This document shows positions 14,901 through 64,000 of a DNA stretch of 64,000 nt, piece after piece. This DNA is from Mizuhopecten yessoensis (Eukaryota), in contig NW_018405604.1 of NCBI RefSeq assembly GCF_002113885.1, positions 68,830 to 132,829 on the forward strand, written 5' to 3'. The translations under genes were made by a program, and so were the position numbers. How positions within the stretch are numbered: the stretch's first letter is position 1; every line of letters starts with the position of its first letter. A model generated the notes under the pieces. It saw only the letters and a program-made list of their open reading frames with translations. It searched no databases and was not told the DNA's origin.

Positions 14901-15597
14901 GCAGTATTAGTGACCCTGGGACGACTCCAAAATGCAAATCCTTTCTAGATATTTAAGTACCCGACACTTTCGCCAATTTTAGTGAAGGTATTATCTTAAG
15001 TAAGTTTCCTAGATAACTCGTCGCTACTAATCTCAGGGGTATAAAACATACAACATTGTCTTCACACGAATACAAAGTACATACCACATCGTCAACGTGA
15101 GAAAAACAGTGTAATAACAATAGGAAACAATCGATATGACAAAAAGAGTCCAGAAGGCATCGACATATAAGGTAAGCCATCATGAACCCCAACATAATCA
15201 AAAAGGGGAACCTGGTTTTCCAAAAGGGGTTAGTTTCCAGCAGTAATTAACACAACATTACGGTCGTGACCTGTAAAATCATTCACCAGTTCTCCTATAG
15301 TGTCCAATCCCGTTAATTCACCAACCACTGGTCCGAATGATCTTGTATCAAGCCAGTGTGTTAGGAGACGATTGTACCTTTCTTGATGTTGTGTCGACAG
15401 GACAGCTTTGATTTCAATGCTCCTCTCCGAAGGTCAGTGTCTAACTATATATATATATCGGTACTTCGTCGACTTCTTTGCTTTTGGAAAAAATAATGCT
15501 GTGATAAAATAAACAATCCATCAATTTTTTGTCGCATTACATCTGTATATGATTAAGAGGCAGCGGTAAACACTATAGTAGTAGATGTAATATGTCA

Positions 15598-15957
15598 ATG
15601 CTCAACCTCAATCCGAACCTCAATCCAAGAAAGATTGAGGTTCGGTTTGAGGTTCGATTGAGGCAGATTAAGGCAGATTAGGGTTCGATTGAGGCACATT
15701 GAGGTTCGATTGAGGCAGATTGAGGCAAATTGAGGTTCGATTGAGGTTCGATTGAGGCAGATTGGGCTAGATTGAGGTTCGATTGAGGCAGATTAAGGTT
15801 AGATTGAGGTCAGATTGAGGTTCGATTGAAGTCTGATTGAGGTTTAGATTGAGGCAGATTAAGGCAGATTGAGGTTCGATTGAGGCAGTAATCCTTATAA
15901 AAGGCATCATCTTACTAGAGGTTTCAGTTGTATGACATGGCTCAGAAACAGATTGAA
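15598..15957 (+). repeat. Left TIR of Polinton-like element with gattgaggttc/gattgaggca 10-11 bp subrepeats
   Basis: Reverse complement of 24084-24390. Confidence 0.9.
15896..15930 (+). promoter_or_regulatory. TATA box + TCAGTT initiator within TIR
   Basis: TATAAAAG at 15896, TCAGTT with the A at 15926 (30 nt spacing), ATG at 15937. Mirrored at 24110-24144 and copied at ~21028-21062 on the minus strand. Confidence 0.6.
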
Positions 15958-15959
15958 AA

Positions 15960-16396
15960 GACTACTTAAACAGTTTAAGACTGCAAAACTATCGGATTGA
16001 AAAAAACGAAGAAAAGGCCTATAGGAGAATTATAAAAAAAATCTACTGTGTCTCTCTTATGCATACGTTGTAAATTCAACAATAACAGAACTATTCGTAT
16101 GTTTAGGCTGTGAGAATCATCGAGCTGGTCAACATGAACATGAATGTCTGATGCATTCTACTGCTGTTATTATAGACTTACATTTTGACGAAGCATTGAC
16201 TTTAACAAATCATTTAGAAGTGGAAAAGACTTGGCGTGAGTTTGCCATTCAATCTTGTATACCTTCAGACGCATTACAACGTCTGATGCAAGACGAACGT
16301 TTAAGGGACGAGAACTACGTAAAACAAAGTTATAGCGAAAAGATAAAGAAATACGTTAAGAAGATCGGTAATGTCGAAACCCAGTTATTCAATTAA
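15960..16396 (+). pseudogene. Polinton accessory ORF with CxGC-x9-H-x-C motif (CLGCENHRAGQHEHECLM), disrupted
   Basis: The frame upstream of ORF 16151-16396 carries the Cys/His motif and has in-frame stops further 5'. An inverted paralogous copy lies at 23015-23475. Confidence 0.55.
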
Positions 16397-16428
16397 TATA
16401 CAGATGAATCTATCTACATCATAACCAC

Positions 16429-16818
16429 ATGACAAGTCATACCTGTCGGTTGATGACATTCTTACAGTGGCCATGTACACATCGTCCATACCAGCTGGCT
16501 CGTGATGGATTTTTCTACGAAGGTCATGGTGATTATATTACATGTTATAAGTGTGGTAAAACTTTGAAACATTGTGAATTCAGAAACTTTTCGTGGAGTG
16601 TTTCGATCCTCATTCTATCCTGCCATACCCTTTGTAGATTTGTTAAGAAATTTCTGATAATTGACTCGTCAGATTGCATTAGAATGGACAACCTTTTAAA
16701 ACTAGTATATGCATACCACGTCAGAAAAATCGTAGAAGAGCAACAATGTTGTATAAAGGACGCCTTTAACAGTGTGGATGACATAAAAGTGATACGTGAC
16801 TTTATTCGAGAAACGTAA
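16429..16818 (+). CDS. BIR-domain (IAP-like) protein of the element, degenerate
   Basis: RLMTFLQWP...QLARDGFFYEGHGDYITCYKCGKTLKH...CRFV matches the BIR signature. The Zn-binding His is not at the canonical spacing. Confidence 0.75.
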   Translation: MTSHTCRLMTFLQWPCTHRPYQLARDGFFYEGHGDYITCYKCGKTLKHCEFRNFSWSVSILILSCHTLCRFVKKFLIIDSSDCIRMDNLLKLVYAYHVRKIVEEQQCCIKDAFNSVDDIKVIRDFIRET

Positions 16819-17033
16819 ACTCGAGCATTTCAAGAAGTGTGAGGAATGCCTCCATATCACAGTTATGTAACGTGGAATGGTGAACTCAAAACCAAATGGA
16901 AATGGAAAGACAAAATCAGTCATATGGTCATGTCCATGATTCGTTTAGAGAATAAGTTTAAAAACAAAACGCTGTAAAATATTTTTATTTGTAATAAAAG
17001 AGTATATACATAAATGTTTGTCTCATTATCATT

Positions 17034-17690
17034 ATGTTGATAGAAGATGAAAGAAGACGCATAAATGCGGTGTATTATGACTTTAAGAATGGTGACGCAT
17101 TTCTCAGTCCCACGAAAGTACATCAGATATTAACATTGCAAGGATATAAATCGCCAGGTCTTAAAACTAGACAAAGTCTCGACGATAACAGTTTACAGAA
17201 ACCTCCAAGACGTTCTTTTAAGCGAGCACGACTAGACGTTTCGGGTCCCTTCGAGCAATACGACGTATCTTGCAGACGTTTCCTCCCTTTCAAAGCAGAA
17301 ATCTGGTTATCGGTTTCTCCTTGTTGTCATTGACGTATTCACACGTTTCGTATGGGTTGAACCTGTAAAGACAAAAACAGCCAGAGATGTATTAGATGCC
17401 TTTAAAAGAATTATCGAAAGAGGGAAAATTACCAAAGCGCATGCGTAGTGACAAAGGAACATGAAGTGCACTATTTTACCAGACAGAATGAGACAAAGGC
17501 TAATTATGCAGAAAGAGTAATCAGGACGCTCAAGACGATGATGTACAGATACTTTACAAAATATAGAACTTATCAATACATCGATAGATTACAAGATTTC
17601 ATCATCAATTACAGCGCTACACCTCACAGATCTTTAAACGGGTTATCACCGAGAGACATAAACGATTCTAACAAAGACGATGTATTTGTC
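17034..17690 (+). pseudogene. Polinton-type retroviral-like (rve, DDE) integrase, frameshifted
   Basis: Across frames: LQKPPRRSFKR...YRFLLVVIDVFTRFVWVEPVKTKTARDVLDAFKRI...SDKG...KANYAERVIRTLKTMMYRYFT...YSATPHRSLNGLSP. Confidence 0.9.
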
Positions 17691-17696
17691 AGCCCT

Positions 17697-19075
17697 AAAA
17701 TGACTGGTGTTTGTTTGGAATTACTCACAGACCCAGACATGTACCTGTTTTAGCCAACAATCCCTACATTCCCGAATCGTACGATTCATCCCATCCCGAC
17801 TCGTATATCATGTATACAGACTGTAACAATTTATATGGCAAAGCCATGACAGAACCATTGCCCGTAGATGATTTTCGCTGGGTTGAGGAAGTCGATAAGT
17901 TTGACTTGCTCTCTATACCTAAAGAGGGTGACTTGGGGTACATCCTAGGGGTCTATTTAGAGGGTGAGCGAAAACCGTCTCGGATGAGGAGTTATCTCCC
18001 ACAAGCAAAGCACTGTGGAGAGAGCTTAGTCCGTGCGATAAACATACAGAATCTAAGCTATATGGCCGCGTAAAAAATAGAAAAGTTGATACCAAACCTT
18101 GATAGCAAGACAAAATACATTTGTCACTATAGAAACTTACAACTCTATTTAGATCTGGATTTGAAAGTTACAAAAATCCACAGAGTGTTGCAATTTAGAC
18201 AACTCCCTTGGTTGAGGAAATGCATCGACTTTGATACTGTTAAACGAATGCTCTCGAGCGATTTCGAAAAAGTTTTTTTTTAAATTGATGAACAACTGTG
18301 TTTGGCAAGACCATGGAAAACGTTCGCAACAGAGTCGACTTTAAACTCGCTCACACGACCAAAAAACTTAAAAGGTCCTGTTCAAGACCTTCTTTTCAAA
18401 GATGTACCATATTTAATGAGGATTTGACCGGCATAAAAAACGCCAAAATAAAACTAGTGTTAAACAAACCCATTTACGTGGGTCAAACCATCTTAGATTT
18501 ATCGAAATATATCATGTACGAATTTTACTACAAATATCTCAAACCGAAATATGGAGACGGGATAAAATCATTATTCACAGACACCGACAGTTTTTGTGAC
18601 GACATCTATGTCGACATGTTACATGACAGACATGTGTTTGACTTGTCAAATTATCCGGCGGGGCACTTCTGTTACGATTCCACCAATAAAAAGATACCCG
18701 GTTATTTTAAAGACGAAACCGCAGGCAAACCTATCGCAGAGTTTGTAGGACTTCGCGCCAAAATGTACAGCGTTCGATATGCCGTTCGAGAAACTTTTAC
18801 GTTTAAAAACATGAGAATCACTACCAATTCGTTCAAAGAAAAGCAAGTGGCTAAAAGCGTTGCCAAAGCTGTCATAAAGCACGACTTGCGTCACGAGATG
18901 TACAAAGAATGCCTCTTTTACAAACAAAATATAATGTGCGAAATGCATTCCATTAGGAGCTATAGACACCAGTAATACGTGTATAACATCAACAAATCTG
19001 GATTATGTGCTTTTGACGACAAGCGGTGGATCCTACCAAATCTCTGCGAAAGCTATACCCTCGGTCATTACAAAA
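17697..19075 (+). pseudogene. Protein-primed family B DNA polymerase (Polinton pPolB), 5'-truncated and frameshifted
   Basis: Motifs IMYTDCNNLYGKAM (A), KLMNN.VFGKTMENVRNR (B), LFTDTDS (C), KLIPNL, EFVGLRAKMYS and AFDDKR, spread over ORFs 17711-18975. Confidence 0.93.
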
Positions 19076-21678
19076 CAAAAGACGACATTGTAAACGTTAC
19101 ACCAGTTTAATAGAAATTGTATATGACAAAGGCATTATCTGTAGGAGTTATCTTTATGAATTGTACATTAAAGCCTATGATTGTTATCTTATTCAACTGA
19201 TGTACAATAATAGTAAATATGGCAAGAATGATTTTTCATGTACATTATTTAATTACAATTTGTTCATAACTGACACTGTATATAGTAAAACCCATGTTCG
19301 TTATACTATGTATTCATTTAGTTATTCATGATAATTAAACCTTCATGTTGTACAATTTATAAGTTATCATTTATTTGTAACTATCCATCAATGAAAATAT
19401 AGTCCACTTAATATCGGAAAAAGTTTTATTGTAAAATTATTCAATAACCCATTATGAACCGTACAACACATAGATTCATTTTTACTTACATGGACTTGAA
19501 AGAGATAAATGGTAATAATTTTTATATTAAAGCCTATGGCTGTTATCTTATACCATTATTCAATTGTTGTGCAATTAATGTATTTAGTTATAATAAATTT
19601 CATAATAATAAAAGCTTCATGTCGCGAGTTTAAGTTTACAATATTGTTCAATAGCCGATCATATTATACAACACGTTTCATTTTTACTTGTAATGATTGA
19701 ATGAGACTTGATTGAGCGCAACAACAACAAAAATGTGAAGAATAGCACACTATGAATATTTGGTGTTTGAAATAATAAAATAGTTCATTATGTATATTTG
19801 AGTAGAATAGTTTAACAACTCCGTGACCTTAAGACTAAAATATGTTATATATTAGAAATTTGTTAACATTTTATATAATAATGCAGAATGTTGTTAAAAT
19901 GATATAAGTGTATAGAAATATGTTAAATACGTATATGTGTATAATAAAAATATATAGTAAAGATTTTTGTTCTTTTATTTTACTTTCTGTCGAGGAGCAT
20001 TGTGACAAGGGTATATTTCAGTTAACGTGATAGTACATCAAAACTATTTTAAGAATACTGTGTAATTATATCAATCGAGACAAAAAAATAAATCAAACAT
20101 TTAAAAGAAAACTGTCAATCAGTGATGGGTCAATGTTAGCTTACAAATTCTGACACTAGTCCAACAAATACTTTTTATTAGCAGGTGGTCTGATCATGCG
20201 ACTATTATGTGATTAACTAGAAACACTTCTTTGATTACATTTTACAAAATTGAATGCTATAATATCAGAAATTGTGAATGCATACACAAAAATAACTTCT
20301 TTAAATTAGAAAATTCACAAATAAAAGAGATTATATATATATACCTAAAACTATCATGACCAGGTTTTTTATCATACCTGCTGTCTTTGCAATGTTAATG
20401 TTAGAACGAAACAATGTATGATTAAATAAATACTTGTTATTCATGTCAGAAGAGTTGGTGTGGTTATTCACATATCTTGCTTTACTACACTTCAGTATTG
20501 TTCATATAAAGGGTGACGAAAACCTGTTATCTAGGTAATGACTCTAATCCGACTTAGGCATGGACGGACATTATACAAGTAACTATTTAGGTCACTTAAT
20601 CTTTGCTTTAGGTATTAATAAACATGTACGATTGGTATCTGTGTTTCTGTCAGTTCTACATCTATATTGTTATATGTCTATTGTTACGTTGTCATTCATA
20701 AGGTAACAGTTTGCGAGATTCAAGCGGTGCCTCAATTGTACTTCAATCTATGTTTCCACCACTAACGAGGTCTATTTGTATAACATGTAGAGGACCTTAG
20801 CAGTTTGCGAGATTCAAGTGGTAATTGAAGTAGGGAGACTCTCTTATAAACTAGTATTGAATCAGAAGCATCTGGACAGACGCCTAATGAGATTGTATAA
20901 TGGTATAATGTCCGCCTATACTTTCCTACCCCCACCCCTAAGTACAATTAGTATCATAAGCTTGATGGTCTCAATCGTACTTCAATCTATGTTTTCACCA
21001 CTAACGAGGTATCTGTGCAATGTAATACAACTAAAACCTCTGGTTAGATGATGCCTTTTATAATAGCTTCGTTATTGAGACTCACAGAAACATGAACCTC
21101 ATAAAACTTACTCACAGAAACAATGAGCCTCACAAAAACCAAAACTTGCGGGCTGGATAGTTCCTTACATCAAGATACTCCCAAAATGAGACTCACAGAA
21201 AAATGAGCCCCACAAAACTTGCGGGCTGAGCATTGGCATTTTACAACTTACATTTTAAACCAAAAACACCAAACTACAGGTATACTTTGTATATACTGTT
21301 GGCCGTTTATCATGTAAAATTTAATGATTTAACGCTTAATAACAAACAATAGCTTACAAGGCGGTTATCGAAATTATGTGCAATGTAGATCAAATACAAA
21401 GACAGCTAGACTGCACATTACTTCATAGTTGTTTTTAAAATTTAAGACACCGGCTTACCTCATTTAAATACTATTGGCCAGTATAACCAGTGTTGTTATT
21501 GTTGCTCGATGTAATTCCAGGCAAATGAGTGGTTGATACATCTTGCTCCATTAGAAGAGGGATTGTTGAAATCCCCCAATTCCATGTATCCATAGATGTC
21601 TTCTTCATCCTCGACAACATAGTAGTATTCGACTATTCGAAAAGCATCCACATCATAAAATATTAGATTAAAGTTGTG

Positions 21679-21873
21679 TCAGGCCTCCGTCACCATTTCC
21701 TCTGTCAGGTAGAGTGGCCCTCTATAATCTGGACACTCTGGACTTGTCAAGTTCATGAAATAATTCTGACAAAGTTCGTTTTTACAGACTGAACAAACAA
21801 TAAAATTAGTGTCAATCTTCAGATTGATACAAATATCACATTCCTCTGCCCAGTAAAACTTTCTAGACGTCAT
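21679..21873 (-). pseudogene. Small RING-finger-like ORF within the element
   Basis: ECDIC...VCSVCKNELCQNY...ECPDYRGPL. Two expected Cys positions read TAT (Tyr), one substitution from TGT. Confidence 0.6.
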
Positions 21874-21977
21874 GTTAAAGGTTGAGGTTCGATTGAGGCA
21901 GTGTAATACATGGCTCAGAAACAGATCGACCTCGTTAATGCAAGAAACATCGACATCTGTGAAGTCTCTGCCAACAA

Positions 21978-22197
21978 TATTACCTATCGTGTAGGATTAA
22001 ATCTCACAAACTGTTGCCTTAGGGGCGACTTATTTATAACAATAGACACAGTATTACCTATCGTATAGGATTAAATCTTACAAACTGTTACCTTAGGGGC
22101 GACTTATTTATAACAATAGACACAGTATAACCTATCGTATAGGGTTAAATCTTACAAACTGTTACCTTAGGGACGACTTATTTGTATCAATAGACAA
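21978..22197. repeat. 74-bp tandem repeat x3 inside the element
   Basis: Units start at 21978, 22052 and 22126. Confidence 0.88.
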
Positions 22198-23014
22198 GTG
22201 CCAAATTACGCTAACAGGAATACAGAACTGAAAACCTGTAATACCTCTGGTTTTACTAATGGGTCTACTAATATATTCGAACTTTTTTAATTCACTGACC
22301 TGAATTCAGTTCAACATGGTAAAATAGCCATTTCTAAAATGAATATCCCGACATGAGAGTGGGCCAGCAGGAACTATTTGACAAAGATAAAGAGCACACT
22401 AGCAACATAGGCAATGATAGTTTACTCAACTGTTTACATGGAGGGATTGAAAGGATATTGTTCTGGGGGGGGACAGGATTTTCCCCTTTATATTGAGTTG
22501 AGTGAATTTTCTGTGAGTTACATACACATGTTTAAGAATTGTTGGCCAATGGCCACGGTGGTCCTGTGGTGTTCCTGCTGTTAGCTTTGTCCCCCACTAC
22601 ATTTCTTTGTGGCGGTGGTACATGAAAAGGTGAGTCCTTTTCATGTACCATGTGGCAGGAATTTGCTAACATCAGTTCATTTTGACAATTATAAATACAT
22701 TTTATTTGCATATACGTGGATTGACATAAGTACTTTATGATCATTGGATTCTCCTTGATCACAAAAGACTTTAATTAATTTAATTGACAATTGCTTGGAA
22801 AAAATAAAACATATGCGGCCAGTGAGTGACGCCCTCTTGATGCATATGTGGACAGTAAGTGACGCCCCTTGCTTGAAAAAAATATAAAACATATGCCGGC
22901 AGTTATTGACGCCCTCTTGATGCATATGGGGGCAGTATAGTAAGTGACGCCCATTGCTTGATTAATAAAACACCGTGTCCATTACTGTCAATCTTGTGTT
23001 TGTTGTTTTATTCA

Positions 23015-23475
23015 ATAACTTTGTTTTACGTAGTTCTCGTCCCTTAAACGTTCGTCTTGCATCAGACGTTGTAATGCGTCTGAAGGTATACAAGATTGAA
23101 TGGCAAACTCACGCCAAGCCTTTTCCACTTCTAAATGATTTGTTTAAGTTAATGCTTCGTCAAAATGTAAGTCTATAATAACAGCACTAGAATACATCAG
23201 ACGTTCATGTTCATGTTGACTAGCTCGACGATTCTCACAGCCTAAACTAGTCCGAATTATTCTGACATTTGATAGACTTTTTTATATCGGTCTGACAGTC
23301 CGATATAACAAAAGTCGATCAAACGTCAGAATAATTCGGACTAAGCCTAAACATACGAATAGTTCTGTTATTGTTGATTTTACAACGTATGCATAAGAGA
23401 GACACAGTAGATTTTTTATAATTCTCCGATAGGCCTTTTCTTCGGTTTTTCAAATCCGATAGTTTTGCAGTCTTT
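23015..23475 (-). pseudogene. Inverted copy of the 15975-16332 accessory ORF, interrupted by a MITE
   Basis: High nucleotide identity to the reverse complement of 15975-16332. Confidence 0.8.
23248..23343. mobile_element. 96-bp hairpin MITE, TAG..CTA ends, 9-bp TSD agcctaaac
   Basis: TIR tagtccgaattattctgac / gtcagaataattcggacta. TSD at 23239-23247 and 23344-23352. The empty site is visible in the paralog at ~16100-16112. Confidence 0.92.
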
Positions 23476-23563
23476 TAACAAACAAGTCTGTGTTTAATTC
23501 CATTATCACATGCACGTATTGATAAGATCTTAAATCATGATAACGTAATTCAAAATGTTGTAT

Positions 23564-23860
23564 TTAAATGACGAACATCATCTGTTGAAACAGACAATCT
23601 TTTGACCGTCTCGCGGGCTCCGTTGTGATATCGTCAAAATAGTTCCAGTGCTTTAACGAAACACCGCACATAAAACAAGTAACACAGTCTTCAATGTTAG
23701 TATAGAAAAACCCGTTACTTGCGAGTTGATACAGAGAATGATGATGATGTTTAGGCCAATGTGTAAATGTATCCACACAATTACAACACTGGACCAATGA
23801 TGGATGACGGGGCTGTATAGCGCTTACGGTATGACAAACACTGTCGGTTTCGCATGACAT
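23564..23860 (-). CDS. Second BIR-domain (IAP-like) protein of the element
   Basis: TFTHWP...QLASNGFFYTNIEDCVTCFMCGVSLKHWNYFDDITTEPARRSKDCLF fits C-x2-C-x16-(H>P)-x6-C. The Pro codon CCC is one change from His CAC. Confidence 0.85.
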   Translation of the reverse strand: MSCETDSVCHTVSAIQPRHPSLVQCCNCVDTFTHWPKHHHHSLYQLASNGFFYTNIEDCVTCFMCGVSLKHWNYFDDITTEPARRSKDCLFQQMMFVI

Positions 23861-23861
23861 T

Positions 23862-24103
23862 TTAATTTTCCAGAAACAAATAAACGCACTGTATGCTTTC
23901 CGATTGAAACAGCGATATTTTGAAGAAGTCGACAGTTATTTGTTAACTTTTTCCATCTTCTCGTTAACGAACTTTCAGCTCACCCTTGACTTTCTTGACG
24001 ATGAGTTGCTGCGTTAATCCTATACGACAGGTAACACTGTTGGCAGAGACTTCACAGACGTCGATGTTTCCAGTATTGACGAGGTCAACTGTTTCTGAGC
24101 AAT
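23862..24103 (-). pseudogene. First small (~80 aa) ORF downstream of the TIR promoter (MAQKQIDLVN...), disrupted
   Basis: Reconstructed with one frameshift and two stops. Homologous starts at 15937 (truncated) and ~21910. Its stop abuts the BIR ORF start at 23860. Confidence 0.45.
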
Positions 24104-24390
24104 GTAATACAACTGAAACCTCTAGTAAGATGATGCCTTTTATAAGGATTACTGCCTCAATCGAACCTCAATTTGCCTTAATCTGCCTCAATCTAACCTC
24201 AATCAGACTTCAATCGAACCTCAATCTGCCTCAATCGAACCTCAATCGACCTCAATCTGCCTCAATCGACCTCAATCTGCCTCAATCGAACCTCAATCTG
24301 CCTCAATCGAACCTCAAATCGAACCTCAAACCGAACCTCAACCCGAACCTCAATCTTTCTTGCATTGAGGTTCGGATTGAGGTTGAGCAT
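24084..24390 (-). repeat. Right TIR of Polinton-like element
   Basis: Reverse complement of the left TIR. ORF 23986-24429 is only its antisense translation. Confidence 0.9.
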
Positions 24391-26181
24391 CCACATTTTG
24401 CTATGTTAGTGCGTCATTTATCACGATAGAAGAAATTATCTAATAAGTGTCTCGCATCACAAGAAGAGCTCAAGATTGGAATTTAAATTGAACACTTCGT
24501 CGTTAACATTTATAGTCAAAATCATTTATTTTCGGTAGGAGAACATTCGAACAGACTTACGGTATTTCAATCAGATAACGTTGCATCACTTTCGCCATTA
24601 CCTGCGTCAGCCTTATTTTCACATTCAATTATATTGCTCATGCTTAGTGTTTTATAGACTAGTAACCACATGTATAGCAACTCATTTTTGTCCTCTAGAA
24701 CTTCAAATTAGAGATACCAGACTTTTTTTCTTCACCTCCATTCAAATGTATCTAGGCAGGCAAAATGGATTTGTTTTCTTTGCGAATGACAAGCTAGTCC
24801 GTCTGCACATAAAGTGCAGCTGTCCTACTTAATACTGCAAATGTGGGGACTCATATAACTGTTTACTGAATAGATATTCGATGGTAACAAGTGGACTTAT
24901 TATGGTTTTTTAACCTGCGTGACTGTGACCTACGTCGGTTTTGCAGTCATCATGGCCTAATTTCCGAATAGGGTATTTAGCGTCTACAATGATTCAGTCT
25001 TGTTTATTCGGTTTTAGATCAATAATGACTTGGTTATGTTCCTGTATTGAACGGAAGACATTGTGACGCCTGTCTAAATGTGGCCAGGAAACTATCTCTT
25101 CTCATCTGATGTCGCTTTTGGCATTTATTTCTGGGGCGGGTCCAGTGTCTTTCCTTTGTTTTGGTATCCCAAGCAATCCCTGTTGTCGTATTGTCGTATC
25201 GACTTTCTGTTCCGATTTAGCAGTGGCAATTGTTTTTCTAATTTCTATTTGACCAGATTTTTCCGAGTTAAATCACGTGAAAGATTTATTTTCCTTTGAA
25301 TTTTTCAACAAAATACAAACATGTTTTTTTTCAAGAACATCACACGTTGAGTTCAGTAATTCTGTAACAATAAATTTATGAAGAAAATAAATTCTTACAG
25401 AAGAGAGTTAAATGTTCCTTTTTCAAACTTGTCCTTGTATTTGGCAGATAAATGTATAGTGAAACTTACAGAAAGAACAGACCCGAAGCATGCATGATGC
25501 AACAGGGGTTACACTCACTTTCGCTTTCTGTTCTGCACCCCTGGAATATGTTATAGCAAAATCAAGTCCCAGTGTATACCACCATCTGGATGTGACCAGA
25601 AGACTAGTTTGATACTTTGATGTACATCAACAGAATATGTCAGTCGCGTAACGGCTTTGAAGGGGTGGCGCTCCTCTGTGATCTTCAAAGGACAGGCATC
25701 AGCCTAGCGATTGGTCAGGTGTTTTTTTTTACCGTAGACCAATCAAATGGCCAGCCACGTGACTTGAATTTTGCTATGACATACTCTAGGGATACAGAGA
25801 GCGAAAGTGTTATCCCTGAAGTATCAAAGATGGACCAAAAGGAAATGTGGTGAAGGGGATACTGATCGGCAAAACATACTACATTGAAGAGGATATATAC
25901 GACAACTAGAACACTGACAGGTCAGTAAGGGCCCCGTCTTGTGGCAATATATCCCCCTTAATCATTAAAAACCCCATCTGCCCATATAGCTGAGCTTGAC
26001 GTTTGACATTTAGTTTCAAAATAAATCGCAAGGAAGCAAAATTTACATTTTACATGTACTATGATGCGAGTCTTGTTTCCTTCCACCTCCATATTTGCTG
26101 GGCTAACAGAAATGTAAATATGGGTGCAATACTCATTTGTAAGCTTTGATTTGTTTTATTTCACCTTAAAAACCTCCCCCA

Positions 26182-27674: not shown

Positions 27675-30600
27675 TTACGTGATGGTTTCTGGTGAACAAT
27701 TCTCTGTCGTCAACTGACTGTCAATGTTCAACTGAATGTGTCCCTCAATGTCTTCTTCATTACTCTCTCGAGATAAAGCAAGGTTCCTCAGTCGCTCTAG
27801 ACACACCTGGGCAACCTCCCCCAGCTCCGGCTGCAGAGACAAAATTACAGGTATGTAAGATAAAGGTGAAGGGACGTAAAGTATAAGTATATAAAATAAA
27901 GGTATACATATCGAAAGTAGGAGTATACTATATAATTACCTGTATGACATGAACCCCACGCAGAGTGACCACAACCATATCGTCCATTCCATCTCCCATT
28001 ATGTCTACTCTGTCTACTCCAACTACTGGACTTGCAAAGCTTCTTTGCCAGAGCAGTTTGTAACAAAGCTTTCTGTCTGATACTGTCTCATTTAAGTCTT
28101 CCTCAGACAATTCTCCCCTCAGTATAGTATCTTGGTTCTTGGGTAATGAGGAACAGAGGTTCTCCTGGGATTTTGCCTTTCTAGGCAAAGTAATGGCCCC
28201 CCGGGGGTCTCTGCCTGTATGTCCGCTTCCTGTCAGGTTTCGCTGTCGTGGGGATGCGGCTGGTTCTCCTCCAATATAACTGCTTATGTTTGCTGGTGAT
28301 GAAATTTTGCTTTTCATTATAGATGGAGATTTTTGAAGCATTGGTATTTGGTCGTCCTCTTGCATCAACTTGTAAGCTAATAGCTCCTGTAAAAATGAGT
28401 ATTAACTCTGATAACTATATTTCTTACTCTTCATAAATTTTGTCACATATATCTTTTAATGTAGCTCAGTATTCAGTTGAAAGATTGATTGTTTAAACTG
28501 ACTACCCTCCAACAGTTCAAATTGAGTAAAATTGTGTATACTAAACAACAACAAAACAACACATATCAACAACTCTAAGACTACTTTCAGTACTCTACCT
28601 GGCCATCCGTGCCCACGACGATCTCGTTACAGCCATCACACATCAACAATTCTAAGACTACTTTCAGTACTCTACCTGGCCATACGTGCCCACGACAATC
28701 TCATTACAGCCATCACATTTCAACAATTCTAAGACTACTTTCAGTACTCTACCTGGCCGTACGTGCCCACGACAATCTCATTAGAGCCATCACATTTCAA
28801 CAATTCTAAGATTACTTTAAGTACTCTACCTGGCCATACGTGCCCACAAGGAACTCGTTACAGCCATCACACATCAATAATTCTAAGACTACTATCAGTA
28901 CTCTCCCTGGCCATACGTACCCAGGAGGATCTCGTTACAGCCATCACAAATCAACCATTCTAAGACTACTATCAGTAATCTACCTGACCATACGTGCCCA
29001 CGAGGATCTCGTTACAGCGATCACACATCAACAATTCTAAGACTACGTTCAGTACTCTACCTGGCCATACGTGCCAACGAGGATCTAGTTACAGACATCA
29101 CACATCAACAATTCTAAGCCTACTATCAGTACTCTACCTGACCATACGTCCCCACGAGGATCTCGTTACAGCCATCACACATCCACAATTCAAGACCACT
29201 TTCAGTACTCTCCCTGGCCATACGTACCCAGGAGGATCTCGTTACAGCCATCACACATCAACAATTAAGACTACTTTCAGTACTCTACCTGACCATACGT
29301 GCCCACGAGGATCTCGTTACAGCCATCACACATCCACAATTTAAGACTACTTTCAGTACTCTACCTGGCCATACGTACCCAGGAGGATCTCGTTACAGCC
29401 ATCACACATCAACAATTCTAAGACTTCTATCAGTACTCTGCCTGGCCATATGTGCCCACGAGGATCTTGTTACCGCCATGACACATGAACAATTTAAGAC
29501 TACTTTCAGTACTCTCCCTGGCCATACGTGCCCACGAGGTTCTCGTTACAGCCATCACACACCCACAATTTAAGACTACTTTCAGTACTCTCCCTGGCCA
29601 TACGTGCCCACGACGATCTCGTTACAGCCATCACATATCCACAATTTAAGACTACTTTCAGTACTCTACCTGGCCATACGTGCCCACGAGGATCTCGTTA
29701 CAGCCATCGAAATCTATGTCAGCCACACAGGCGCACAGAGGGATGTCGTAGTTACAGCTACCAGGCAAGTACAAGGCATTGTCTAGACCATTGGCAAGGA
29801 TGTTTCTGAAATAAAGTTTACAAGCCTAGTGTTAATATATGCAAAAAGGTAGCGCTTATCCATAAACAAATCTTATTTCCACTAAACAGTGGACCAAACT
29901 GATATCGGACCTTCATGATGGCAGATGACTAAGCATTAAACCCTGATAAATTTCACTGAATTATTGCCCATGTATAATTACAAACTATGACATTAGTATA
30001 TGGCAAACTATTTTTGGCAAGCAAATATGTTCACATTTTACTTACTTAACCATAGAAAAAAAATAGACATCCTATTTATTGGAATGTGTCTTTTACCAGA
30101 ACACTTACAGGTCAGCAAGGGCCATATATGTGTTTTACCATGATCCATATCACCAAGCAGACACCTTATAGAAATCATCTTGGAATTCAGAATTGAGAAA
30201 TATGGGTTTCACACATCTATAATCTAACAAGTACAATTACCCACTAAGTATATACATTTATCATTAAAAAGAGCATGATAGCCATATAACATATGTAACA
30301 GCCAGTCAGAAGGGATGGACAGTAGAGGTCTCAGATTTGTAATGCCGAGTAATATGGTGTGATTAATGCATCATGTAAACAAAGTACTGTTTATCATCTG
30401 ATACCTTTCAGGCCATTTTAAAATTGAAGGAAGAACAAATGTTTAGATAACCTATAGACTACTGTCGGTTCCAGAGAACTCATCACCAGCAGATTGTACA
30501 CAGCAGGGGATTCCTCTTGCACAGAATTGTTTTTTCCTGAAATCAAGAAATGCACAAATGCAACTTAAGGAAATCTGTATGCATACAAGTTATACCAGGC

Positions 30601-62280: not shown

Positions 62281-64000
62281 ATGGCACAGTCTAGTATGCT
62301 AGAGTTGCTGGCCCTCACAGACGCAGCGGTCAAGGGCCTGGACAAATCTGTGAGGTCTTCCTCTGCCAGTAGTCGTTCTTCACGTGGATCAGTTGGAAAA
62401 GCTGAACATTATGACTCACCAAGTCATGACAGTGGTATATGTAAAACCAATACTGTAACGGAGAAAAATAGAGGCCCACCTTTAGGTCACCTAATTCATG
62501 ACTCAGATGAGAGCACTACAGCAAGTGATGTTTTGATAACATCCACCACTGTTGATCCTGACCAAAGGAGCTTTATGTTGCAGGATGGGGAAAACTTGAG
62601 TAATGTTTCAAAATGTTCCAAAATATCAATTGGATCAGAAAATTTTAATACTTCTGGAGCACAAAAAGTAAAAATTTCAACCAAGAGACTGAGAGAAATT
62701 AAGTCCCCTTTTGAAACAAGTCCAAGAGGCAGAGAAGATAAAGAAAACGATAAACAAAGTGCCCCAGCTGTTAGGAAAGCACCTATTAAACCAGGTGAAA
62801 GATCAGTGGATGCCTCAGGTATGAACAGTGATGACAAAAATTTAAGTAAGAATGCCATTGCCAAACCTGTGGTTTCAAAAACTAGCAATTTCAAAGTACA
62901 GTCTGCACCTAGAGGTCTCAGTGAGATCACAAAAAGAGACAACAAGGAAGACGACCACTTCTTTTCACCAATGCAAACTCAAAGATCTGACACCTTTGAT
63001 GAGTTTTCTCCTCGAGATGAAGGCAAGGAGTTAATAGAAAGAAAAGGAATCAAAACACACGTAACCCCATCAAACACTTCGGATCCTTACAGAGTAAGTA
63101 AACAAAAGGCTGCAGGGGTCATTGTGGAGAGGCATACACCGAAAAAGATGATTCAGCCGGAGAGGAAGAAACATCTGGAGGAATCCCAGAGTGACCATGG
63201 AAAAGATCCAACATTAGACCTCAGTGGTAGTGTTGATCTGCTTGAAAAAGAAGGTATGCTTATGGTCTAACACACTTTATAATCTGTCTGAATATATTTA
63301 CATACTACAAATTTAATTAATTTGTTCATATTATCACAAAAATAATCAAAAACAAATTCAATAGTACTTGTATTTATATGCTTGTGCAAGAGGTTTTGAT
63401 GCAATTAAATTATAGTTTAGCTTCAATATATTGAAATTGAGAATTCAGTCTAAAATGATTTTGAATCAATAAGATCAAAATGTTTGACTTTTCAGTGTTA
63501 TTTGTTAATATACAAAATTTAGAAGGGAACCAAACAGTATTGGCATGGTATATGATTTGACAAATGTTTTTCTCTTGTAGTTGCCTCCCCTGTTCTAAAT
63601 GTAAGTGGGAGTAGTCAACCAGAGATAGTCACAATAAAGGAGAGGATTGTCACAGTGTCAGCACGTACATCACTGTCAACAGACGCCTCTCTCAGTGATA
63701 CCGGGCCACTGGAACAGGAGGAAGAAAGGGTCCCACCAATGCTGTCTGCCAGATATCAACTAGGGTCAAAGGTCATCTTATTAGATATTTACTATGCTTC
63801 TAAATATGTGATTTCTATGACACTCCATTTTTAGCAGTAAGAAAGTTAATACCATCACTAATTTCTAGGTTTTAACATATTTGAAATTTATTCTTGGAAG
63901 TATAATTAAATTTGACTAATACAAATATTCATTATATAATAGTAAGCTCATAAAAGGTTGTAACTTTTTAACAGATGACTGGTGGAGGTCTACGTCAGGG
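62281..64000 (+). CDS. Probable TALPID3/KIAA0586-like centriolar protein, N-terminal exons (continues beyond window)
   Basis: Acceptor at 62272-62273, Kozak-like accATGG, 973-nt coding exon to a donor after 63253, in-phase exon 63581-~63771, next acceptor ~63974. The protein is low-complexity. QKVKISTKRLREI resembles recalled human KIAA0586 KKIKMPVKRLREV, and the gene is head-to-head with a Tim9 gene as in human. Coding status is more secure than the identity. Confidence 0.6.

What the first reader, a model, noticed from the sequence alone, without database searches (positions are those of the whole stretch)
15598..24390. Polinton/Maverick-type endogenous virus remnant carrying two distinct BIR (IAP-like) genes and a RING gene
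Seen: next to integrase and pPolB relics, each arm encodes a different stand-alone BIR protein read inward from the TIR, and a separate small RING ORF lies internally. Known: BIR+RING IAPs are anti-apoptotic factors of baculoviruses and other large DNA viruses, they are not Polinton core genes, and bivalves have expanded IAP families. Inference: this lineage had an early anti-apoptosis module with BIR and RING on separate genes, and such elements may contribute to host IAP counts.
Basis: partly seen in the sequence, partly recalled or inferred. Interest (0 to 1): 0.72.

Follow-up and report, generated by a model that had tools for sequence, protein, structure and literature searches.

The report
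Decayed Polinton carrying duplicated BIR genes
This is a broken, rearranged copy of a virus-like Polinton element whose family carries two small cell-death-inhibitor-like (BIR) genes side by side at one end, likely once used to keep host cells alive; such copies supply many of this genome's BIR matches and would inflate host inhibitor-of-apoptosis counts.

Summary
The element, both BIR ORFs and the RING-like ORF are real, but the layout was misread. In sibling copies both BIR genes sit in tandem at the left end: TIR, BIR-A, X, BIR-B, Y, integrase, virion module, pPolB. X follows BIR-A in 27 and BIR-B in 26 of 30 loci. In the window the left arm has lost BIR-A, and the right arm is an inverted duplicate of the left end (96-97% identical). 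All three ORFs are damaged here. Across the family the cargo shows purifying selection (dN/dS 0.13-0.28). The element BIRs form one clade apart from sampled host BIRs, so one capture and an internal duplication are likely. The RING is an N-terminal eight-cysteine type found only in a sub-branch, so a split IAP is not supported. IAP homologues in adintoviruses are already in print (PMC8502044). The useful part is quantitative: 62-75 of the 150 listed BIR matches in this genome are element-borne. The published 'retroposed' intronless IAPs of the hard clam may therefore be Maverick cargo, which is untested.

The parts
15580..15956 (+). Left TIR: AGTAGATG terminus, subterminal 10-11-bp tandem repeats, TATA-like box at 15896, start of the first small ORF
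   Evidence: Terminus like sibling termini; repeats; TATA motif positions
15956..15977 (.). Junction of a ~610-bp deletion that removed BIR-A from the left arm
   Evidence: Left arm matches the right arm on both sides (24399-24085 and 23474-23344) but lacks the stretch between
15978..16396 (+). Gene X, 5'-truncated; family form 148 aa, all-helical, conserved C-x2-C-x9-H-x-C cluster, function unassigned
   Evidence: confident model pLDDT 88.8, no clear fold match
16429..16593 (+). BIR-B, front part only; frame runs on into gene Y
   Evidence: Pfam BIR positions 1-55; siblings have BIR-B (about 80-97 aa) and Y as separate ORFs
16660..16959 (+). Gene Y relic (family form about 106-113 aa, no Pfam or PHROG match)
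17034..17688 (+). Integrase relic, frameshifted (sibling: rve E 2e-14 plus weak chromodomain)
17697..19111 (+). C-terminal third of pPolB, frameshifted, joined directly to the integrase relic; the virion module and pPolB N-terminus are deleted
19353..20616 (.). Family right-end non-coding DNA
   Evidence: 92% to the matching part of G000:C2442
20862..21140 (.). 279-bp insert holding another inner-TIR piece (TATA motif on minus at 21062); skipped in contigs of 4 of 4 DNA runs laid
21499..21873 (-). RING-like gene relic; family form about 144 aa with an N-terminal eight-cysteine finger and a ~90-aa tail
21880..22340 (.). Original right subterminal segment, locally inverted relative to siblings
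   Evidence: Opposite orientation to the RING when compared with C2015, C5551, C1165, C1331
23015..23503 (-). 5' part of gene X in the duplicated arm, interrupted by a 96-bp hairpin repeat at 23248-23343
   Evidence: the hairpin bin has depth in the thousands in 4 DNA runs
23564..23860 (-). BIR-A, 98 aa, BIR-only; this copy lacks the conserved Arg and the zinc-binding His
24085..24399 (-). TIR of the duplicated arm (TATA motif at 24144); outermost bases not matching the left terminus

Best explanation
This is a decayed, rearranged copy of a Polinton/Maverick family that carries two BIR-only genes in tandem at its left end, which likely arose by one capture plus an internal duplication and likely served to block host cell death while the element was active. 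SHOWN: family order TIR, BIR-A, X, BIR-B, Y, integrase, four virion-module ORFs, ATPase, two small ORFs, pPolB; loss of BIR-A from the left arm; an inverted left-end duplicate as the right arm; damage to all three ORFs; dN/dS well below 1 across the family; type II residues in family BIR-A. INFERRED: the cassette is transcribed inward from the TATA box in the TIR; BIR-A binds IAP-binding-motif N-termini and acts as a RING-less decoy for IAP antagonists or processed caspases (about 0.55); BIR-B, with an altered fourth zinc-ligand region, took another partner; the RING gene is a separate viral-type ubiquitin ligase gained by one sub-branch. The duplicated arm most likely arose by recombination or template switching between the ends of this copy before the left arm was deleted.
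For: Of the 30 best BIR-A loci, X follows on the same strand in 27, BIR-B in 26 and Y in 24. The full order to pPolB holds in 9 of the 10 elements fetched at 20 kb, the tenth having BIR-A joined to the integrase. Window arms are 97.2, 95.9 and 96.6% identical in three unique segments, against 90-94% to the nearest sibling, C2015. 4 of 7 siblings tested have 6-bp target-site duplications, lengths 15.7-17.1 kb. dN/dS for pairs with dS >= 0.6: BIR-A 0.13 (79 pairs), BIR-B 0.28 (58), X 0.25 (31), Y 0.24 (54), RING 0.28 (7); controls: putative minor capsid 0.16 (10), protease 0.21 (5). 21 element BIRs form one clade, 97/92, against 23 host BIR domains from 19 loci. Family BIR-A has E-H-x2-W-x3-C, the type II signature in PMC8917759, and aligns over the whole domain to XIAP, DIAP1 and NAIP BIRs.
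Against: No function was tested. dN/dS pairs are not independent, only open frames were used, and saturated pairs were dropped (42 of 136 for BIR-A). Trees rest on 64 columns; the BIR-A/BIR-B sister grouping is 86/83 and unresolved. Only 13 of the 30 best BIR-A loci pass a strict pattern for an open frame with Arg and all four ligands. The 3-6 point identity gap does not exclude a second, close sibling as the source of the right arm. The major capsid is assigned by position and size only (no hit). The BIR-B model failed (pLDDT 45).
Confidence: 0.8

Rival explanations
1. Split IAP: the element encodes BIR and RING on separate genes that act together as one BIR-RING IAP.
For: BIR-A, BIR-B and RING co-occur in the window, C2015, C5551 and C5349. 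The RING shows dN/dS 0.28 in distant pairs (7 pairs). 13 of 24 RING matches lie within 8 kb of a listed pPolB match.
Against: The RING was found in only 2 of the 10 elements and in none of the 6 single-BIR subfamily elements mapped to pPolB. It is N-terminal with eight cysteines and a ~90-aa tail, whereas IAP RINGs are C-terminal RING-HC (PMC8917759). The nearest Atlas clusters are all viral, score 0.92 with low recognition. No PDB hit under E 0.05; cIAP1 RING only at E 0.5.
Confidence: 0.12
2. The right arm is the left end of a second, closely related element that inserted head-to-head, not a duplicate of this copy's own end.
For: A 674-bp stretch (22341-23014) with no match of 90 bp or more in the 20 long sibling stretches separates it from the original right-end piece. 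Six inward-facing BIR pairs within 25 kb exist elsewhere among 103 loci, all in the single-BIR subfamily.
Against: The arms share the same subterminal repeat type, which differs among siblings, and are closer to each other (96-97%) than to any fetched sibling. No second terminus or target-site duplication was found.
Confidence: 0.2
3. The BIR genes are passive host retrocopies carried along without function.
For: The host has single-exon BIR-only genes of 89-93 aa on C107 with no element marker within the 10-kb stretches fetched. Most element copies are broken.
Against: dN/dS is close to that of the core-gene controls. Position is fixed across subfamilies whose synonymous sites approach saturation. 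C107 is not placed inside or firmly beside the element clade (78/53, unresolved).
Confidence: 0.07
4. BIR-A does not act on cell death but, like survivin-type BIR-only proteins, on cell division or signalling.
For: It is BIR-only and about 100 aa. Intronless single-BIR oyster genes are classed BIRC5-like in PMC8917759.
Against: The best PDB matches are NAIP, XIAP BIR2, DIAP1 and cIAP; survivin is not among the 60 rows shown of 82.
Confidence: 0.2

Closest known systems
Beta-type adintoviruses / animal Polintons (Starrett et al. 2021, PMC8502044)
   Same: AGT-type termini, integrase at the left followed by a virion module and a pPolB that scores poorly to PF03175. The paper states that IAP and Bcl2 homologues were observed; in the text of its Fig. 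S2 'IAP' labels stand next to the Mytilus and Pinctada rows (label placement read from PDF text).
   Different: Here there are two BIR-only genes with two unassigned ORFs (X, Y), a diverged BIR-B and an optional RING gene. The passages read give no architecture, selection or copy count for adintovirus IAPs.
Vertebrate Mavericks (Barreat and Katzourakis 2021, PMC8097293)
   Same: Module order integrase, minor capsid, PW, major capsid, protease; TIRs; 6-bp target-site duplications; accessory regions at the ends; most copies degraded.
   Different: In this family all core genes lie on one strand, and the accessory region holds BIR genes.
Baculovirus IAPs (BIR-BIR-RING; recalled) and OsHV-1 ORFs 42, 87, 99, 106 (PMC5436676)
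   Same: Virus-borne BIR proteins described as putative apoptosis inhibitors.
   Different: These are single-BIR proteins without an attached RING on a ~16-kb integrating element; no viral IAP sequence of known name was placed in my trees.
Hard clam IAP clade 1 (Song et al. 2021, PMC7831173)
   Same: Dispersed, intronless, BIR-only, mostly silent: 42 of 49 intronless, DNA transposons enriched around IAP genes; 11 of the 28 clade-1 rows seen have a 408-bp single-exon CDS with near-zero FPKM.

Membership tests
Polinton/Maverick | TIRs with AGT-type termini and 6-bp target-site duplication | tested here: met
   Siblings: 4 of 7 tested have a 6-bp duplication, 5 of 7 have AGTAG at both ends. The window has the left terminus only.
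Polinton/Maverick | Retroviral-type integrase | tested here: met
   Sibling ORF rve E 2e-14; window relic matches it.
Polinton/Maverick | Protein-primed family B polymerase | tested here: met
   1385-aa open frame in a sibling; polymerase motifs visible in the window (motif identity recalled); PF03175 only E 0.25, as expected for the divergent Beta class in PMC8502044.
Polinton/Maverick | Packaging ATPase and adenain protease | tested here: met
   Siblings only: P-loop ORF with Pox_A32 E 0.014 and Peptidase_C5 E 0.001, both under cut-off but in the expected order. Deleted in the window.
Polinton/Maverick | Double-jelly-roll major capsid and minor capsid | tested here: inconclusive
   440-aa and 141-aa ORFs at the expected positions; no capsid hit in Pfam, PHROGs or PDB sequences; not folded.
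Type II BIR (family BIR-A) | C57, C60, H77, C84 with E/Q76 and W/H80 (PMC8917759) | tested here: met
   pattern in most of 17 aligned copies. Not met in the window's own copy.
Canonical BIR (family BIR-B) | CCHC zinc ligands with canonical spacing | tested here: not met
   after C-x2-C most copies have E-C-x3-H in place of E-H-x6-C; Pfam covers only positions 1-57 of 70.
BIR-RING IAP (single or split) | C-terminal RING-HC acting with the BIRs | tested here: not met
   RING is N-terminal, eight-cysteine and absent from most mapped siblings.
IAP by function | Inhibits caspases or cell death | not testable with these tools
   Needs binding and cell-death assays.

The most novel reading that the evidence does not exclude
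A large part of the reported bivalve IAP expansion, specifically the dispersed, intronless, silent BIR-only class attributed to retroposition (hard clam clade 1), is viral cargo of Polinton/Maverick elements, with a BIR lineage that may itself come from other viruses rather than from the host.
Probability: 0.4. Interest if true: 0.72.

Novelty: new variant of a known kind. Interest (0 to 1): 0.5.

Why it matters
IAP expansion is widely read as a host adaptation to stress and infection. In this genome 62-75 of the 150 listed BIR matches belong to a mobile element, so counts made by domain search can be inflated by viral cargo, most of it dead. That gives a cheap test on published gene lists: look for integrase, capsid and pPolB beside the intronless BIR-only genes. 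Mavericks are the largest DNA-transposon class by bases in the hard clam table (1.7-1.9% of the genome, PMC8905726). The conserved cassette also suggests that these elements had to suppress cell death, as an infecting virus would.

Tried and rejected
Homologue search with one BIR-A copy in the 5.8-billion set: no candidate; with the RING alignment: none at E <= 0.001. Viral-contig scans with BIR-A, X, P0113 and P0109 and a metagenome scan with X: nothing confirmed, so the context of the unnamed two-BIR proteins is unknown. BIR-B fold: pLDDT 45, unusable. X as a Bcl-2-like protein (suggested by the Beta map in PMC8502044): the confident model has no Foldseek match at E <= 0.001 and a best Z of 5.8 among unrelated helical proteins, inconclusive. 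Atlas search with X: no usable hit. BIR-A plus RING complex: score 0.00, 'no answer', alignments not used by the tool; no evidence either way. RNA: four runs, three only guessed as RNA, gave short family-like contigs over BIR-A, X and non-coding parts alike; no claim of expression. Major-capsid profile against PDB gave only unrelated weak hits. The C107 BIR-only cluster as donor or domesticated copy: no element markers nearby, weak tree support. Three look-ups of earlier findings were empty. Two preprints searched for BIR or apoptosis had no occurrences.
Full report
OBSERVATION. The window holds inverted arms, an integrase relic, the C-terminal third of a pPolB, two ORFs with Pfam BIR hits and a Cys-rich ORF. 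Contigs from other individuals cross both host-element junctions (no contig spans the whole element). The reading of its layout is not.

THE FAMILY. Searches of the own genome gave about 150 listed matches each for both BIR ORFs, pPolB and gene X; these lists are capped. I fetched ten elements at 20 kb and further ones and mapped each stretch with natural family proteins. The order is TIR, BIR-A, X, BIR-B, Y, integrase, 141 aa, 160 aa, 440 aa, protease, ATPase, 100 aa, 143 aa, pPolB, on one strand. BIR-A, X, BIR-B, Y, integrase and pPolB stand in this order in 9 of the 10 elements, some with internal deletions; the tenth has BIR-A joined to the integrase. Among the 30 best BIR-A loci (1.5-kb flanks) X follows in 27, BIR-B in 26 and Y in 24. 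A second subfamily has one BIR, X and a Y-like ORF before the integrase. Siblings have AGTAG termini and 4 of 7 tested have 6-bp target-site duplications. The order matches the integrase, minor capsid, PW, major capsid, protease module described in PMC8097293 (passages) and the Beta map of PMC8502044. The capsid assignment is by position only.

THIS COPY. The right arm (23015-24399) carries TIR, BIR-A and the front of X, which is the family's left end. It is 96-97% identical to the left arm in three unique segments and 90-94% to the nearest sibling. The left arm lacks about 610 bp including BIR-A. The original right subterminal piece lies at 21880-22340, flipped relative to siblings. The virion module is deleted between 17688 and 17697. 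BIR-A here lacks its conserved Arg and zinc His, the 129-aa ORF is a BIR-B/Y fusion, and the RING ORF has lost two cysteines and is cut short. 'One BIR per arm' is therefore a product of decay.

THE CARGO. Pairwise dN/dS among natural open frames is 0.13-0.28 for BIR-A, BIR-B, X, Y and RING in distant pairs, against 0.16 and 0.21 for two core genes; close pairs give higher and noisier values (0.31-0.84), as post-insertion decay would (pairs not independent, saturated pairs dropped). Family BIR-A has the type II signature given in PMC8917759 (passages). BIR-B keeps the front of the domain but not the canonical last two ligands. In a 64-column tree 21 element BIRs form one clade (97/92) against 23 host domains. 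Adding 26 library domains keeps the clade (SH-aLRT 95, one unnamed library protein inside) with unnamed two-BIR metagenomic proteins as sister (90). One capture and an internal duplication are likely; the donor is open. The RING was seen in 2 of the 10 elements, in C5349, C1331 and a few more, and 13 of its 24 genome matches lie near a listed pPolB match. It is N-terminal and eight-cysteine, and its nearest Atlas clusters are viral (weak). I read it as an independent, optional viral-type E3 rather than the missing half of an IAP. X folds confidently but matches nothing clearly.

SHARE OF BIR MATCHES. A PF00653 search found 392 candidates and scored 150. Of these 58 lie within 1.5 kb of X, 41 within 20 kb of pPolB, 62 meet either test, and 75 do so when sequence type is added; 72 of the 120 whole-domain hits are element-type. 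This is not a genome-wide fraction of IAP genes: single-exon BIRs are favoured by the search, the lists are capped, many element BIRs are pseudogenes, and no gene annotation was available. Most of the 19 other loci sampled look like ordinary host IAP exons; two belong to the C107 single-exon cluster.

MECHANISM. Most likely the cassette was read inward from the TATA box in the TIR (motif shown, use inferred), and BIR-A bound IBM-bearing proteins as a RING-less decoy to delay death of the cell in which the element replicated. This rests on the conserved groove signature, purifying selection and analogy to viral IAPs; none of it was tested.

WHAT IS KNOWN. PMC8502044 (passages, one section part, text of Fig. 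S2; Fig. S1 not readable) already reports IAP homologues in adintoviruses, with labels beside Mytilus and Pinctada. PMC7831173 (passages, 28 of 49 clade-1 table rows) reports 42 intronless BIR-only, mostly silent hard clam IAPs and calls them retroposed, with DNA transposons enriched around IAP genes; 'maverick' and 'virus' do not occur in its text. PMC13159474 (passages) also attributes intronless IAPs to retrotransposition, and 'polinton' does not occur. PMC8905726 (passages) lists Maverick as the largest DNA-transposon class in that clam. Six searches showed no paper linking host IAP counts to Polintons; the library lacks most subscription journals, and preprint supplements were not seen.

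VERDICT. A real but decayed element of a known kind with known-type cargo in a new arrangement. Interest 0.5.

Noticed in passing
G000:C107:1757635-1990586 (L130, L131, L141-L146): Cluster of at least six single-exon BIR-only ORFs of about 90 aa without Polinton markers in the fetched flanks; they lack the type II Glu before the zinc His.
   Followed up: partly
G000 C76432, C4383, C5508, C942, C76728, C123 (L101, L103, L113-L116): Dead BIR copies of the single-BIR subfamily, several sharing the same in-frame stops, some in inward-facing or palindromic pairs: amplified after inactivation.
   Followed up: partly
P0110; P0109, P0113, P0128: An unnamed 100-aa protein falls inside the element BIR clade (61% identity over the domain); unnamed 226-256-aa two-BIR proteins from metagenome assemblies form its sister group (SH-aLRT 90), hinting at a non-host donor.
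   Followed up: partly
L097:1149-1763 and L089:919-1476: In two copies the first small ORF after the TIR TATA box is in frame with BIR-A (205 and 186 aa); in most copies BIR-A has its own start.
   Followed up: no
sibling TIRs: Subfamilies share the AGTAG terminus but carry different subterminal tandem repeats.
   Followed up: no
window 23248-23343: 96-bp hairpin repeat with depth in the thousands in all DNA runs laid: a very high-copy MITE-like element.
   Followed up: partly
L068, L079, L080 (C4470, C5094, C3910): Longer RING-gene relatives with no other family marker within 8-10 kb.
   Followed up: partly
L103:2714-3316: Tyrosine-recombinase / DUF3504 (Crypton-like) ORF lying beside the pPolB end of a Polinton copy.
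   Followed up: partly
window 60883-61482 (+): 199-aa frame that looks like a Tc1/mariner transposase N-terminus (recalled, not searched).
   Followed up: no
window 62248-63270 (+) and 27928-28401 (-): Long low-complexity frames without a Pfam match, possibly host exons.
   Followed up: partly
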